A stretch of 64,000 nt of DNA from Escherichia phage AV101, in the sequence record OQ973471.1. The stretch is one strand, 5' to 3'. This document shows, piece after piece, positions 1 to 3,297 of this stretch. Each line of letters begins with the position of its first letter. The stretch's first letter is position 1. The position numbers and the translations under genes were made by a program. A model generated the notes under the pieces. It was not told the DNA's origin. It searched no databases and saw only the letters and a list, made by a program, of their open reading frames with translations.

Positions 1-498
1 GGCGCGGGTATTGCCCTGCACATCGGCAACAACTTCCCAGCGCTGCGCGAAGTCGATGCGAACGACCCTCGTGGTCCAGAGCAACGCCTGGGTGGCATGT
101 CCTATGCATTTGACCACAGCACTGGTGTCTGGGGTGCGAACCTCTACACTCAGTTTTATCCAGGTCCGAACGCTCGCATGCCGTCTGTCATCAGTTCTGT
201 TCAGACCCTGTTTGAGCAGGTGCATGAAATTGTGGAAGCAACTAAAGACGAAACTGTCTATGTCGGCCTGCCTGCTATCGGCTGTGGCATTGGTGGCCTG
301 AACCTCTACAGTGTAGTGCGCCATATCAATCGAATCTCTGAAAGCGTGTATGAAGAGACCCGCCGTCGTGTCGTCCCAGTCTTCTATATCAGGGAAGGAG
401 ACGGGTTCGATGATGATCTGATGGAACTTTCTCATCTGGACACAGAAAGTATCATGATTGTCGAAGATGAGCAAGAAATCATCGACGAGGAGGGGTGA
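1..498 (+). CDS. macro-domain-like protein (ADP-ribose binding/hydrolase family), 5' end outside window
   Basis: Frame 1 is open from position 1 (the ORF track's 97..498 is its internal-Met part); motifs GAGIALHIG and VGLPAIGCGIGGL resemble macro-domain glycine loops; acidic C-terminal tail. Confidence 0.35.
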   Translation, partial: GAGIALHIGNNFPALREVDANDPRGPEQRLGGMSYAFDHSTGVWGANLYTQFYPGPNARMPSVISSVQTLFEQVHEIVEATKDETVYVGLPAIGCGIGGLNLYSVVRHINRISESVYEETRRRVVPVFYIREGDGFDDDLMELSHLDTESIMIVEDEQEIIDEEG

Positions 499-501
499 AT
501 A

Positions 502-753
502 ATGATATGCGCGTTTGATCAAGAATTTTATAAAAAGGTCAATATTCTAAAACTTGTCATGTCTGGAACTAGTTCGAAAGAAGTATCAGAAATTTATTGT
601 ATTTCACAGGCCAGGGTGAGCCAGATTTTGAGGGAAACTATAGGGTTACTTTGCCCAGAGATAGAAATTAAGCGCGTCAACAAAAAGTTCATTGATGAAA
701 ATTATTATACAGTAAAAGCCAAAATAAAGTGTTGGGAGAATAAGCATGTATAA
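502..753 (+). CDS. small helix-turn-helix protein
   Basis: ATG at 502 with GAGGAGG RBS; SEIYCISQARVSQILRE resembles sigma region-4/HTH. Confidence 0.4.
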   Translation: MICAFDQEFYKKVNILKLVMSGTSSKEVSEIYCISQARVSQILRETIGLLCPEIEIKRVNKKFIDENYYTVKAKIKCWENKHV

Positions 754-1378
754 ATCAAATTTTTTGGCTGTGGCTGACAGTGAAACCTTGGGGCGCTGGG
801 ATGATGCAGTCATGCTGTCTTGGGCACACACCATCGCTGACTTGACCAAGCGTTATACTCTTCAGCAGCTGGTTGAGGAGCGCACGACGTTCATTAAGCT
901 GAATGTCAAAGAGCAGATCGAACTCGGTCGCGTGAAGGACCAGGGGACGGTAGAATGGTGGTTGGGGGCGGGCAAGCGCAACCCGTGTGATGCGGCTCGC
1001 GCCGTCAGTCTGTATCCCAAGGAAGATGACATCTCTATCTTCCAGCTGGCCGATGAAATCCGCAAGGGTTGTCATCGTCTTGGGGTAGACCCGCGCTCGG
1101 TTGACTGGTGTGACCGTAACTTGTTCGATCTGCGCAAGGCTCAACACATCATTGAGGTGACGTGTAAGCAGGACTCCAACGAGCCATGGGATTACCACCA
1201 CACGTTCGACATCGTGAGCTGGCTGAAGGGTGTCGGACAACAGGATCGCTACGCTGGCATCAAGGCGTGGGAACTGGAAGGTATGGTCTATCATGACCCT
1301 CGTTATGATGCGGCGCTTGACTGGCTGCGTATTCAGAAGACCATGGAAGATCTGATGGGGCTGGAGGTTGTGGGATGA
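746..1378 (+). CDS. dexA: DnaQ-like 3'-5' exonuclease (T4 DexA-like)
   Basis: N-terminal AVADSETLG (Exo I DxE) and C-terminal HDPRYDAALD (Exo III) motifs; size 210 aa. Confidence 0.55.
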   Translation: MYKSNFLAVADSETLGRWDDAVMLSWAHTIADLTKRYTLQQLVEERTTFIKLNVKEQIELGRVKDQGTVEWWLGAGKRNPCDAARAVSLYPKEDDISIFQLADEIRKGCHRLGVDPRSVDWCDRNLFDLRKAQHIIEVTCKQDSNEPWDYHHTFDIVSWLKGVGQQDRYAGIKAWELEGMVYHDPRYDAALDWLRIQKTMEDLMGLEVVG

Positions 1379-1677
1379 TTGTATTCACTGTCATCGGTGT
1401 GATCGTAACAGCTGGGGTGTTCGCAGCCATATTGGGCTACCTGTACTTCATGTTCCTTCATCCGTTATTTCAGGCGTTCAGTCTCACGAATTGGTACTTG
1501 GCCTGCCTAAAGGCCGACGGCGGCGTGAACATGGCCTCTCTTCCTTACTGGCGGCTGGTGGCGCATTACTACTCGGTCGGTGGCTGGCCTGGGGAAAGGA
1601 CATGGAACTCTATCGGTGAGTGGTATGGAATAGGTCGATGGCGTATATTCCCTGATGAAGACGATCAAGCCCCGTGA
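1375..1677 (+). CDS. small membrane protein
   Basis: ATGA overlap with upstream stop; N-terminal hydrophobic helix IVFTVIGVIVTAGVFAAILGYLYF. Confidence 0.45.
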   Translation: MIVFTVIGVIVTAGVFAAILGYLYFMFLHPLFQAFSLTNWYLACLKADGGVNMASLPYWRLVAHYYSVGGWPGERTWNSIGEWYGIGRWRIFPDEDDQAP

Positions 1678-1740
1678 GGGGCTTTTCTATATCCGGGATA
1701 GAGTATCATTGTTCACCAACGAATCCTCGGGAGAGGCGAT

Positions 1741-2082
1741 ATGAAACGTTCGGTTGTTGTAAATGACATCACGAGATTGATAAACCTTGTCAAAGATGTG
1801 TTTCCACAACAGGTGGATGTCGAGTACGTGGGGAAGAACGGGAAGTGTTACCAGGTCGCTCTGTTGTTGAAGCACGTGTACCCTCAAGCAGAGATCCATT
1901 ACAGTCAGATTGAAGGTCATGTGTATACTCTGATTGATGGGCATTACTACGACATCGACGGCATCCACTTCAGTGTCCCACCGGACACGTGTTTGCTCGA
2001 ACACAACAGAGGTCACAAACCACATCGCTGGCATAAAGGGTTTGTGAACGTACCGATTTTAGAATGGTTGAGGAGACCATAA
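1741..2082 (+). CDS. hypothetical protein
   Basis: ORF 113 aa with GGAG-type RBS upstream; no recognisable motif. Confidence 0.4.
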
Positions 2083-2642
2083 TGGCAGGAATTGTAAAGT
2101 ATCTGGGCGACACCCACCTCGGACACAAGAAGATCTTCAAGCCCCGTGGGTTCGATACCCAAGAGACGCATGATGCTGCAGTCATCGACAGTATCTTTCA
2201 GGGGCTGAAGTCTCGAGACGTCCTTGAACTGGCTGGGGACATCTGCTTCATCGGGGCTGAGGGGTTCATTCGCCTGATGCGCGAGGGTGCCAAGCGGAAT
2301 ATTGATGAGTTCAAGCGCCGCCCGGTTCCCGATGACTGGCGACCGAACTTTATCATCAGGGTGGCACAAGGCAACCATGACAGATTCAAGATGTTGATGC
2401 AGCTGTATCAAGAGGGATGGATTAGATCCTTTGGTGCGATGTATGAGCGTGATACTCCAGTTGGTCGTGTATTGACCACTCACGTTCCTTATCAATTAGA
2501 CCGCTGGGTGTATAATATCCATGGTCATCTTCACGAAAATATTCGCGAAGAGCGCGAATACCTGAACTGCAGCTGGGAACAATTCAAGCGTCCTGTAACC
2601 CTGTCTGAGTTGTTATACACAAATTTAGGAATTGTGCTATGA
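2082..2642 (+). CDS. calcineurin-like metallophosphoesterase
   Basis: Motifs GDTHLGH, GNHD, GHLH; ATG at 2082 overlaps upstream stop (TAATG) with GAGGAG RBS. Confidence 0.65.
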
Positions 2643-2971
2643 AAATATTCTTTCCTGGTCAGAAAGTACCCGAAGAAATAGAAAAGGTCGAGTTATTTGG
2701 TTATAAAATCGGTGATCCGTTCCTGCGATTTTCTTCACCATGTATCGTGAAGCGCGATCATGAAGGGTATTATGTGCGCCCAATCATTCTCATGGGTTCT
2801 GTCATGACGCTGAGAGCCAAAACAGACTCCGTCGTTATTACCGGAAGTCCTAACATACCCAATGGGAAGACCACACTCAATGGAAAGCCTATCCTGTCGT
2901 CTTGGGCGTTAATTGGATTTCTGTCTATAATCTTGTTTTATCGTTACCTTACCGACTTGGGGATCTTATGA
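2639..2971 (+). CDS. hypothetical protein with C-terminal transmembrane segment
   Basis: ATGA overlap start; C-terminal [13 protein letters not shown] hydrophobic stretch. Confidence 0.4.
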
Positions 2972-3297
2972 AAAAGCCACGCATCACAGGACATCAACTC
3001 TGCGTCCTTTTAGGAATGTTGAACTTTGAGAAAGGTCATTGCCGTTATGGTGAATGGTACTTTCATCCCAAATCCTGGACCAATGACAAGGGCAACACCG
3101 TCTGGACGTTCCGGGTATGCCCGAACGCTGGTGGTTTCACCTCCGTCAAAGGCAACCCCCGCACTGGGGCTTCCCTGTTGTCCAAAGGGTTAATTGAACC
3201 AGCTGGCTCAATGGTTCATGACGGTTCTTACGTGAACTGGCCGAACACTGAGGTGACGTTCTATCGCCTGACCGAACTCGGTAAATCTTATCTCTGA
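2968..3297 (+). CDS. hypothetical protein
   Basis: ATG at 2968 overlapping upstream stop (ATGA); track ORF 2902..3297 trimmed to this ATG. Confidence 0.4.
   Translation: MKKPRITGHQLCVLLGMLNFEKGHCRYGEWYFHPKSWTNDKGNTVWTFRVCPNAGGFTSVKGNPRTGASLLSKGLIEPAGSMVHDGSYVNWPNTEVTFYRLTELGKSYL

What the first reader, a model, noticed from the sequence alone, without database searches (positions are those of the whole stretch)
1..753. Macro-domain-like protein followed by a small HTH protein at the window edge
The open frame from position 1 to 498 has glycine-rich loops (GAGIALHIG, VGLPAIGCGIGGL) typical of macro domains, which bind or remove ADP-ribose. In phages these can reverse host ADP-ribosylation-based defence or the phage's own ART activity. 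The gene is truncated at the 5' end, so the call is tentative. A small HTH protein follows immediately.
Basis: partly seen in the sequence, partly recalled or inferred. Interest (0 to 1): 0.45.

Follow-up and report, generated by a model that had tools for sequence, protein, structure and literature searches.

The report
Phage macrodomain gene plus rare HTH insert
The window starts inside a phage gene for an ADP-ribose-removing macrodomain enzyme related to T4 Tk.4, which protects T4 from the bacterial DarTG2 defence, and it is followed by a small DNA-binding-type gene found in only a few related phages; both are ordinary kinds of phage gene.

Summary
Window 1-498 (+) is the last 165 codons of a 199-codon gene; the missing 34 codons are present in near-identical Ackermannviridae phages. 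The full-length protein models as a macro fold (pLDDT 96). Its nearest solved structures are TARG1 and the DarG macrodomains. It is a homologue of T4 Tk.4 (33% identity, E 2e-15). A 2025 preprint names Tk.4 AdfM and shows that T4 needs it to resist DarTG2.

The family has an invariant Gln where DarG and TARG1 have their catalytic Lys. Streptomyces SCO6735 has the same substitution and still removes ADP-ribose from thymidine in DNA. The most likely function is therefore removal of DarT2-type ADP-ribose from phage DNA. This is inferred, not shown.

ORF 502-753 (83 aa) is a sub-threshold sigma-70-region-4/LuxR-like helix-turn-helix protein. It lies in a low-GC (34%) insert of about 295 bases, found in 3 of 50,697 phage records. 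The insert sits in three different flank backgrounds, so it has moved by recombination. Its function is unknown.

This is a new member of a known kind, of modest interest.

The parts
1..498 (+). 3' part (165 codons plus TGA) of a 199-codon macrodomain gene, the Ackermannviridae homologue of T4 tk.4/adfM. The first 34 codons lie outside the window.
   Evidence: dN/dS against related phages is 0.04-0.17.
1..27 (+). GAGIALHIG: the C-terminal part of the first glycine-rich loop (family motif HGaNCwstMGAGIA). It aligns with VMGKGIAL of DarG. The family-invariant Asn (full-length N29, aligned with DarG N22) lies just upstream of the window.
   Evidence: Alignments; invariant columns; DarG N22/K80 named as active-site residues in PMC13309987.
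139..177 (+). NLYTQFYPGPNAR motif. The Gln at nt 151-153 (window residue 51, full-length Q85) is invariant in 46 family members and aligns with the catalytic Lys of DarG (K80) and TARG1 (K84).
   Evidence: SCO6735 has Gln85 at the same site and needs it for activity (PMC9411070). T4 Tk.4 also has NLYTQ.
271..300 (+). PAIGCGIGGL: the second glycine-rich loop. It aligns with PPLGVGNGGL of DarG and PRIGCGLDRL of TARG1, and has Gly where TARG1 has Asp125, as DarG does.
391..495 (+). C-terminal extension of about 35 residues, absent from T4 Tk.4. The last 50 residues hold 17 Asp/Glu against 4 Lys/Arg. It is modelled with high confidence as helix, strand, helix.
   Evidence: It is variable between phages: KE31 has a different 3' end.
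487..495 (+). GAGGAGGGG, a Shine-Dalgarno-like sequence for the ORF that starts at 502. In phages without the insert the same stretch serves dexA.
493..787 (+). Inserted low-GC cassette. It runs from the last codon of the macro gene to codon 14 of dexA and carries the 83-codon ORF plus a synonymously recoded dexA 5' end. GC is 33.6% for nt 499-745, against 52.8% and 54.2% in the flanking genes.
   Evidence: The alignment with empty-site phages YX22 and ChubbyThor shows TAA-ATG adjacency there. Composition. Mosaic flanks in SilasIsHot and KE31. No flanking direct or inverted repeats.
502..753 (+). 83-codon ORF encoding a small basic protein (pI 8.9) with one sigma-70-region-4/LuxR-like helix-turn-helix. 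It is an ORFan outside a few Ackermannviridae.
571..642 (+). The helix-turn-helix itself (residues 24-47, SKEVSEIYCISQARVSQILRETIG).
   Evidence: Best stretches of Sigma70_r4, GerE and HTH_28 and TIGR02937. 59% identity over 37 residues to P0057, a Sigma70_r4 fragment. Helices 25-32 and 36-50 in the model.
746..1378 (+). Neighbouring gene, a DexA-type exonuclease. It is context only. Its start overlaps the end of the HTH ORF by 8 bases.
   Evidence: PHROG 255 exonuclease E 9e-53; annotation in 4HA11 and ChubbyThor.

Best explanation
Window 1-498 encodes the larger part of a stand-alone macrodomain ADP-ribosylhydrolase of the ALC1-like (TARG1/DarG) class. It belongs to the enterobacterial-phage Tk.4 family. 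It most likely acts early in infection as an orphan antitoxin: it binds ADP-ribose attached to thymidine in single-stranded phage DNA by a host DarT2-type toxin, cuts it off, and so keeps replication going (the AdfM mechanism). The catalytic Lys of DarG/TARG1 is replaced by an invariant Gln. The chemistry is therefore expected to follow the SCO6735 route (Gln positions the distal ribose and a water molecule attacks), not the Lys route. The fold, the family membership and the Gln substitution are shown here. The substrate and the anti-DarT role are inferred from homologues. ORF 502-753 is a separate, recently imported accessory gene for a small HTH DNA-binding protein. It has moved between Ackermannviridae by homologous recombination of its flanks. 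Nothing shows that it works together with the macrodomain.
For: Fold: AF2 model of the full-length homologue has pLDDT 96.1. Foldseek top hits are TARG1, Poa1p, Mtb and Taq DarG macrodomains and SCO6735, and phage macro proteins in BFVD, including Acinetobacter phage 133 tk.4. Sequence: the family profile gives 5m3i (Mtb DarG macrodomain) E 2e-18, 5m31 1e-16, TARG1 1.4e-14 and SCO6735 4.5e-10. NCBIfam DarG gives 4e-8 and PADLOC DarG 5e-7, both on the macro part only. Homology to T4 Tk.4: BLASTP E 2e-15, 33% identity, with shared HG(A/C)NC..TMG, NLYTQ.xPGPN and IG.GIG motifs. T4 Tk.4 hits the same PADLOC DarG model. Function of homologues: deleting tk.4 sensitises T4 to DarTG2 (bioRxiv 10.1101/2025.11.20.689424). 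The PhiKZ macrodomain AdfM removes DarT2 ADP-ribose from DNA (PMC13309987). SCO6735, which has Gln at the Lys position, removes thymidine-linked ADP-ribose and protects against DarT, and Q85A is inactive (PMC9411070). Gln in place of Lys here; it is invariant in 46 sequences. Selection: dN/dS 0.04-0.17. The gene is conserved at the same position across Ackermannviridae genera. HTH cassette.
Against: No activity of any Ackermannviridae member has been measured. Identity to T4 Tk.4 is only 33% over 115 residues, and the T4 result is a preprint giving genetics only. The Pfam Macro model is below threshold. The active-site Asn lies outside the window and is known only from near-identical phages. 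Macrodomains of this class also act on proteins and small molecules: TARG1 on Glu/Asp-ADP-ribose, Poa1p on ADP-ribose-1''-phosphate.
Confidence: 0.6

Rival explanations
1. The macrodomain reverses ADP-ribosylation of proteins or RNA rather than DNA. Examples would be modifications made by other host ART toxins or defence systems, or by an ART of the phage itself.
For: TARG1, the top structural match, is a protein Glu/Asp-ADP-ribose hydrolase. SCO6735 also acts on protein substrates (PMC9411070). Macrodomain substrate range is broad.
Against: The only member of this phage family with a phenotype (T4 Tk.4) was the single significant hit of the T4 transposon library screened against DarTG2, a DNA-modifying system. 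By sequence the closest solved relatives are DarG macrodomains. No ART gene was looked for or seen near the gene.
Confidence: 0.15
2. It is a metabolite-processing enzyme, either an ADP-ribose-1''-phosphate phosphatase or an O-acetyl-ADP-ribose deacetylase. This is what the database labels 'phosphatase' and 'A1pp' imply.
For: PHROG 335 is labelled phosphatase. T4 tk.4 is annotated 'contains A1pp phosphatase motif'. Yeast Poa1p is among the top fold matches.
Against: These labels are historical, from before the macrodomain hydrolase work. The profile match to Poa1p (E about 5e-9, N-terminal part only) is much weaker than the matches to DarG (2e-18). A metabolite role does not explain the DarTG2 phenotype of T4 tk.4.
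Confidence: 0.08
3. It is a non-catalytic ADP-ribose binder: a reader, or a sponge for ADP-ribose-derived signals. Loss of the catalytic Lys would be the sign of inactivation.
For: The Lys of DarG/TARG1 is absent. DarG K80A and TARG1 K84A are the catalytically inactive mutants used in the literature (PMC9411070).
Against: Gln at this site is invariant across 46 diverse members, not decayed. SCO6735 with the same Gln is active and Q85A kills it. T4 Tk.4 with the same Gln protects against DarTG2. In that paper's assay SCO6735 inhibited DarT (with the catalytic mutants Q85A, K80A and K84A in hand), so binding could add to hydrolysis rather than replace it.
Confidence: 0.07
4. ORF 502-753 is not a working regulator. 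It would be a remnant: the DNA-binding module of a former mobile endonuclease gene, or a passenger ORF carried along by recombination.
For: It is present in 3 of 50,697 phage records and in one 90% cluster among 5.8 billion proteins. The insert is low in GC. Near-identical tracts sit inside diverged flanks, like co-conversion tracts around homing endonuclease genes. There is a weak match (E 0.01, 41% over 39 residues) to the C-terminal HTH_23 domain of a LAGLIDADG endonuclease in Streptomyces phage Sollertia.
Against: The ORF is intact in all six copies seen. It is tightly packed between the two genes, with a good ribosome-binding site and an overlap with the dexA start. No nuclease remnant is present. 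The matches to sigma region 4 are at least as good. There are too few substitutions (2-6) to measure selection.
Confidence: 0.3

Closest known systems
T4 Tk.4 = AdfM (anti-DarT factor macrodomain; bioRxiv 10.1101/2025.11.20.689424)
   Same: Stand-alone phage macrodomain. Significant homology (E 2e-15, 33% identity). Same signature motifs, including NLYTQ with Gln at the DarG Lys position. Same best hit to the DarG macro model.
   Different: The Ackermannviridae protein is 199 aa against 155, with an extra acidic C-terminal helix-strand-helix. Its gene neighbourhood differs: between topoisomerase II-region small genes and dexA, not next to tk/vs. No phenotype is known for it.
DarG antitoxin macrodomain (M. 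tuberculosis 5M3I, T. aquaticus 5M31/5M3E) and chimallivirus AdfM (PhiKZ gp104, PMC13309987)
   Same: Same fold and same ALC1-like class. The Asn (N22 in DarG) and both glycine-rich loops are conserved. Gly occupies the place of TARG1 Asp125. These are the best profile matches.
   Different: The catalytic Lys (K80 in DarG, K78 in PhiKZ AdfM) is Gln here. The protein has no DarT-binding C-terminal domain of DarG: the NCBIfam DarG match covers positions 6-135 of 338 and scores 32.8 bits against a cut-off of 250.
Streptomyces coelicolor SCO6735 (5E3B) and Bacteroides BT1257 (2FG1)
   Same: Orphan ALC1-like macrodomain with Gln in place of the catalytic Lys. SCO6735 hydrolyses thymidine-linked ADP-ribose on DNA and protects against DarT (PMC9411070). 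Both are hit by the family profile (4.5e-10 and 1.9e-8).
   Different: They are bacterial proteins, more distant in sequence than DarG. The long Lys-rich mobile loop described for SCO6735 was not examined here.
Human TARG1/OARD1 (4J5S)
   Same: Top structural match (E 8e-9, target TM 0.79) and same class.
   Different: TARG1 uses a Lys84/Asp125 dyad. Here these positions are Gln and Gly.
Sigma-70 region 4 / LuxR-GerE tetrahelical HTH domains, and small plasmid or phage HTH repressors such as ArdK (for ORF 502-753)
   Same: One HTH with the SxxEIAxxxxxSxxRVxQIL-type pattern. The best remote relative is a Sigma70_r4 fragment (P0057). Fold hits superpose at 1.1-1.5 A over 38-46 residues.
   Different: All matches are below curated thresholds and no fold hit is significant (best E 0.34). 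The protein has no sigma region 2, no receiver or ligand domain, and an extra C-terminal helical hairpin of unknown relation.

Membership tests
Macro domain superfamily (Pfam PF01661) | Score at or above the Pfam gathering threshold (22 bits) | tested here: not met
   12.5 bits for the window fragment and 16.2-16.7 bits for full-length homologues. More distant family members (P0034, P0035, P0040 and onward) do carry PF01661 in the precomputed table.
Macro domain superfamily (Pfam PF01661) | Three-layer alpha/beta/alpha macro fold | tested here: met
   AF2 model pLDDT 96.1. 176 PDB chains matched at E <= 0.001, and the listed top hits are macrodomains or macrodomain-scaffold designs. BFVD top hits are phage macro proteins. 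The model is of a 90%-identical full-length homologue, not of the truncated window product.
Macro domain superfamily (Pfam PF01661) | Two glycine-rich ADP-ribose-binding loops | tested here: met
   MGAGIA and PAIGCGIGG align with the corresponding loops of DarG and TARG1 and are invariant or nearly so.
ALC1-like class: TARG1/DarG-type hydrolases | Closest relatives by sequence profile and by fold are TARG1 and DarG | tested here: met
ALC1-like class: TARG1/DarG-type hydrolases | Catalytic Lys (TARG1 K84, DarG K80) | tested here: not met
   Gln at this column (window nt 151-153) in all 46 family members.
ALC1-like class: TARG1/DarG-type hydrolases | Active-site Asn (DarG N22) | tested here: inconclusive
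   It is invariant in the family (N29) and present in 4HA11, L008 and L009 at 98.8-99.4% identity to the fragment. The codon lies upstream of base 1, so it cannot be read for this phage. YX22 has Asp there.
DarG antitoxin (NCBIfam NF048014, full length) | Macro domain plus C-terminal DarT-binding domain; score at or above 250 bits | tested here: not met
   32.8 bits; only profile positions 6-135 of 338 are matched. PADLOC DarG matches positions 20-134 of 329. No darT gene is adjacent.
SCO6735-type Gln variant of the ALC1-like class | Gln at the position of the catalytic Lys | tested here: met
   Q85 aligns with DarG K80 and TARG1 K84. The published structural alignment equates SCO6735 Gln85 with the same Lys residues (PMC9411070). 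The link is transitive, not a direct alignment.
SCO6735-type Gln variant of the ALC1-like class | Hydrolysis of thymidine-linked ADP-ribose on ssDNA | not testable with these tools
   This needs an enzyme assay.
Phage Tk.4 / AdfM family | Significant homology to T4 Tk.4 over the macro core, with the family motifs | tested here: met
   BLASTP E 2e-15. tblastn links to RB49 tk.4, rV5 tk.4 and T-even phages. Same PHROG 335.
Phage Tk.4 / AdfM family | Protects the phage against DarTG2 | not testable with these tools
   Shown only for T4.
Sigma-70 region 4 / LuxR-type HTH (ORF 502-753) | Score at or above the curated thresholds of Sigma70_r4, GerE, HTH_28 or TIGR02937 | tested here: not met
   16.6 against 24.1, 16.4 against 23.5, 16.7 against 25; 22.5 against 42.9.
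Sigma-70 region 4 / LuxR-type HTH (ORF 502-753) | Helix-turn-helix fold | tested here: inconclusive
   The single-sequence AF2 model has pLDDT 87, but only one of five models is confident. The listed PDB hits are mostly HTH DNA-binding domains with low rmsd over 38-46 residues, but none is significant. Remote sequence relatives have bona fide HTH domains.

The most novel reading that the evidence does not exclude
The Ackermannviridae protein may be a two-mode anti-DarT factor. The Gln-type macrodomain would remove ADP-ribose from DNA. The lineage-specific acidic C-terminal extension (17 Asp/Glu in the last 50 residues; window 391-495) would mimic ssDNA and block the DarT active site directly, as the C-terminal domain of DarG is reported to do (PMC11481870). 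That would recreate both activities of DarG in a protein of 199 residues with an unrelated tail. A further untested possibility is that the HTH cassette next to it is an Aca-like regulator or an accessory counter-defence gene spreading among these phages.
Probability: 0.12. Interest if true: 0.6.

Novelty: new member of a known kind. Interest (0 to 1): 0.3.

Why it matters
If the assignment is right, Kuttervirus/Agtrevirus-type phages carry a conserved anti-DarTG2 enzyme. These phages are widely considered for Salmonella and E. coli O157 biocontrol, and such an enzyme helps predict their host range on DarTG-bearing strains. The invariant Gln shows that the large enterobacterial-phage Tk.4 family uses the SCO6735-type active site rather than the DarG-type one. 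That is a concrete, testable point about mechanism which the T4 preprint passages read here do not mention. The HTH cassette is a small, clean example of an accessory gene moving between phage genera by flank recombination. Its significance is unknown.

Tried and rejected
1. Pfam and PDB sequence searches with the fragment alone were nearly uninformative (Macro 12.5 bits; 7omu E 0.47). The call needed the full-length homologue, a family profile and a structure model.

2. I tried to get a direct alignment to SCO6735 by querying the PDB with a distant family member. DarG and TARG1 still filled the five alignments printed, so the Gln-Gln equivalence remains transitive.

3. Model coordinates are not exposed, so no superposition of the active site could be made.

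4. For the HTH ORF, the k-mer-indexed search found only its own cluster. The plasmid collection gave no match and PADLOC gave none. Foldseek gave no significant hit.

5. A transposon-like origin of the insert is rejected: there are no flanking direct repeats or terminal inverted repeats.

6. An RNA element in the insert is rejected: there is no Rfam match at E <= 1 in window 1-2000.

7. An own promoter for the insert was not found: no sigma-70-like site in window 1-2200. Phage-specific promoters are not covered by that scan.

8. dN/dS for the HTH ORF was tried, but only 2-6 differences exist.

9. I did not search for phage-encoded ADP-ribosyltransferases or NADAR proteins in the rest of the window or genome.

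Full report
**Observation**

Frame 1 of the + strand is open from base 1 to the TGA at 496-498 and translates to 165 residues. These begin GAGIALHIG and contain VGLPAIGCGIGGL at nt 262-300. An 83-codon ORF starts three bases later (ATG 502, stop 751-753). It is preceded by GAGGAGGGG at 487-495, and its last eight bases overlap the start of the next gene at 746.

**Where the window comes from and what is missing**

Window 1-3000 is 95.7% identical to Escherichia phage vB_EcoA_4HA11 and 89-96% identical to many other Ackermannviridae of the Kuttervirus and Agtrevirus type. It lies downstream of the topoisomerase II genes and a few small ORFs, and upstream of a DexA-type exonuclease. Shigella phage ChubbyThor annotates it as 'putative ADP-ribose binding protein'. 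Full-length copies that are 98.8-99.4% identical to the window fragment exist in 4HA11, YX22 and two metagenome contigs. The truncation is thus an effect of the window edge: 34 codons are missing, and they include the family's HGANC motif.

**Is it a macrodomain?**

With the fragment alone the Pfam Macro model gives 12.5 bits. With the full-length homologue it gives 16.2 bits. Both are below the 22-bit threshold. Other evidence is strong:
- PHROG 335 ('phosphatase'): E 8e-46.
- NCBIfam DarG: E 4e-8. PADLOC DarG: E 5e-7. Both match on the macro part only.
- 53 homologues were found among 5.8 billion proteins. The more distant ones carry PF01661 in the precomputed table.
- A profile of 46 of these proteins hits the M. 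tuberculosis DarG macrodomain at E 2e-18, the T. aquaticus DarG macrodomain at 1e-16, human TARG1 at 1.4e-14 and S. coelicolor SCO6735 at 4.5e-10.
- AlphaFold2 on that alignment, with a 90%-identical full-length protein as target, gives pLDDT 96.1 and pTM 0.92.
- Foldseek against the PDB returns TARG1 (E 8e-9, target TM 0.79), Poa1p, both DarG macrodomains and SCO6735 at the top. Viral and MacroD-type macrodomains follow.
- Against predicted viral structures the best hits are phage macro proteins, including tk.4 of Acinetobacter phage 133.

The gene is under purifying selection, with dN/dS of 0.04-0.17 against five related phages.

**Which kind of macrodomain, and how it probably works**

The protein is homologous to T4 Tk.4 (BLASTP E 2e-15, 33% identity over 115 residues). 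The two share the motifs HG(A/C)NC..TMG(A/S)G, NLYTQ.xPGPN and IG.GIG. tblastn found relatives in 972 phage records, including T-even, RB49-like, rV5-like, Felix-O1-like and Erwinia phages.

Three published results bear on function:
- A 2025 preprint reports that tk.4 was the single significant hit when a T4 transposon library was screened on a host expressing DarTG2. A clean deletion sensitised T4 to DarTG2, and the authors name the gene adfM (10.1101/2025.11.20.689424).
- A 2026 paper shows that a DarG-like macrodomain of chimalliviruses, also called AdfM, removes DarT2-made ADP-ribose from DNA. It names DarG N22 and K80 as the active-site residues (PMC13309987).
- SCO6735 has Gln85 at the position of TARG1 K84 and DarG K80. 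It still hydrolyses thymidine-linked ADP-ribose on DNA and protects Streptomyces from DarT, and it is inactivated by Q85A. The authors propose a water-mediated mechanism in which the Gln positions the distal ribose (PMC9411070).

In the profile alignments the family's invariant Asn29 falls on DarG N22. The family's invariant Gln85 (window nt 151-153) falls on DarG K80 and TARG1 K84. The Asp125 position of TARG1 is Gly, as in DarG. The same Gln-for-Lys pairing appears in a 77-bit pairwise alignment of a distant family member with Mtb DarG.

The Tk.4 family, this protein included, is therefore a Gln-type ALC1-like macrodomain. The best-supported mechanism is enzymatic removal of DarT2-type ADP-ribose from thymidines of phage DNA by the SCO6735-type route. 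Shown here: the fold, the family membership, the conserved loops and the Gln substitution. Inferred: the substrate, the catalytic competence and the anti-defence role.

**What is different from T4 Tk.4**

The Ackermannviridae proteins are about 45 residues longer. After the last core strand the model shows a helix, a short strand and a helix, all with pLDDT above 90. The last 50 residues carry 17 acidic and 4 basic residues. This tail is the most variable part: KE31 has a different 3' end. [quoted passage not shown] An analogous role for this acidic tail is possible, but it is pure speculation at this point.

**The small ORF**

Its HTH nature is supported only at modest level:
- Sigma70_r4, GerE and HTH_28 all score 16-17 bits (E about 0.006), below threshold.
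- TIGR02937 sigma70-ECF gives E 7e-5 on region 4.
- An exhaustive HMMER scan of 1.84 billion representatives found its own cluster plus four proteins. One is a 64-aa Sigma70_r4 fragment of a split bacterial sigma factor gene. Three are tandem-HTH proteins.
- A single-sequence AF2 model (pLDDT 87, but only one of five models confident) has five helices. Its PDB matches are mostly HTH domains such as ArdK, LuxR/GerE and sigma region 4, with rmsd 1.1-1.5 A over 38-46 residues. None is significant.

More informative is its distribution. It occurs in 3 of 50,697 phage records (4HA11, SilasIsHot, KE31), always between the macro gene and dexA. It forms one 90% cluster in the 5.8-billion-protein collection.

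Phages without it (YX22, ChubbyThor) have the macro stop codon directly followed by the dexA ATG. In the window, the stretch from the last macro codon to codon 14 of dexA is replaced by a low-GC segment. GC is 33.6% for nt 499-745, against 52.8% and 54.2% in the flanking genes. The segment also recodes the first 14 dexA codons with ten synonymous changes.

SilasIsHot is 97-100% identical to the window over about nt 300-780, but only 53-83% identical upstream and 73-93% downstream. KE31 has the same insert next to a different macro 3' end. The cassette has therefore moved between diverged genomes by recombination in its flanks.

It has no terminal repeats, no Rfam match and no sigma-70-like promoter. 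There are too few substitutions (2-6) to assess selection.

A weak match links it to the C-terminal HTH_23 domain of a LAGLIDADG endonuclease in a Streptomyces phage (E 0.01). This keeps open the idea that it derives from the DNA-binding module of a mobile endonuclease. I treat it as an accessory DNA-binding protein of unknown target. There is no evidence of a functional link to the macrodomain.

**Comparison with what is known, and novelty**

The macro gene is an uncharacterised member of a family whose T4 member has just been given a function. The searches for 'Kuttervirus' plus 'macro domain' and for 'Ackermannviridae' plus 'DarTG' found no paper on the Ackermannviridae copy. It is not a DarG: it has no DarT-binding domain, no adjacent darT, and its score is far below the equivalog cut-off. 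It does not have the Lys that defines the TARG1/DarG catalytic type. It works most like SCO6735 and T4 Tk.4. That makes it a new member of a known kind.

The Gln observation applies to the whole Tk.4 family. It may be useful to those working on AdfM, but it has a published precedent. The HTH cassette is an ordinary example of phage mosaicism.

**Verdict**

Interest is modest (0.3). Confidence that this is a Tk.4-family macrodomain is about 0.95. Confidence that its role is anti-DarT2 DNA de-ADP-ribosylation is about 0.6.

Noticed in passing
L003:1399-1998 (Escherichia phage YX22, OR776998.1): The YX22 macro protein is 99.4% identical to the window fragment. It has Asp instead of the family-invariant Asn29 (HGADCW), the residue that aligns with the DarG active-site N22. 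This is either an inactivating variant or a sequencing error.
   Followed up: no
P0030 and P0032 (Salmonella phage SenALZ1): The macro gene is split into two ORFs of 98 and 103 aa in this phage and its cluster, so it is apparently dispensable or disrupted there.
   Followed up: no
L004:1898-2809 (Salmonella phage SilasIsHot), against window 1-800: The macro gene of SilasIsHot is a mosaic. Its 5' two-thirds are Kuttervirus-type (53-83% identical to the window). From about window nt 300 to 780 it is 97-100% identical, so the HTH cassette was imported with about 200 bases of upstream flank.
   Followed up: yes
L010:1900-2517 (Salmonella phage KE31): The KE31 macro gene has a divergent 3' end (53-72% identity over window nt 300-480) and is annotated as 618 nt, overlapping the start of the HTH ORF. 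Yet it carries the same cassette.
   Followed up: partly
OR844942.1, 93264-93725: A record named 'Enterococcus phage Efm 3-10' (111 kb, host Enterococcus faecium) holds a Kuttervirus-type macro gene 70% identical to the window protein. It looks like a mislabelled or contaminated record.
   Followed up: no
window 1677-1741: This is a second indel hot spot. ChubbyThor, SilasIsHot and fGh-Ecl02 carry one or two extra genes here ('alpha hydrolase', QueC-like in a Yersinia phage) that the window lacks.
   Followed up: no
window 1667-1684: A terminator-like hairpin (AAGCCCC GTGA GGGGCTT followed by T-rich sequence) overlaps the stop of ORF 1375-1677, a predicted small membrane protein (PHROG 2531).
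   Followed up: no
window 1741-2082 and 2064-2642: A YunG-like phage protein (PF24591, E 2e-43) is followed by an overlapping phosphoesterase-family gene (PHROG 547), annotated elsewhere as Ser/Thr protein phosphatase.
   Followed up: no
L006:5565-6195 (metagenome scaffold, ERZ23491520): The closest remote relative of the HTH ORF is the region-4 half of a bacterial sigma factor gene. That gene is split into separate Sigma70_r2 (93 aa) and Sigma70_r4 (64 aa) ORFs, in the same way in two independent assemblies.
   Followed up: no
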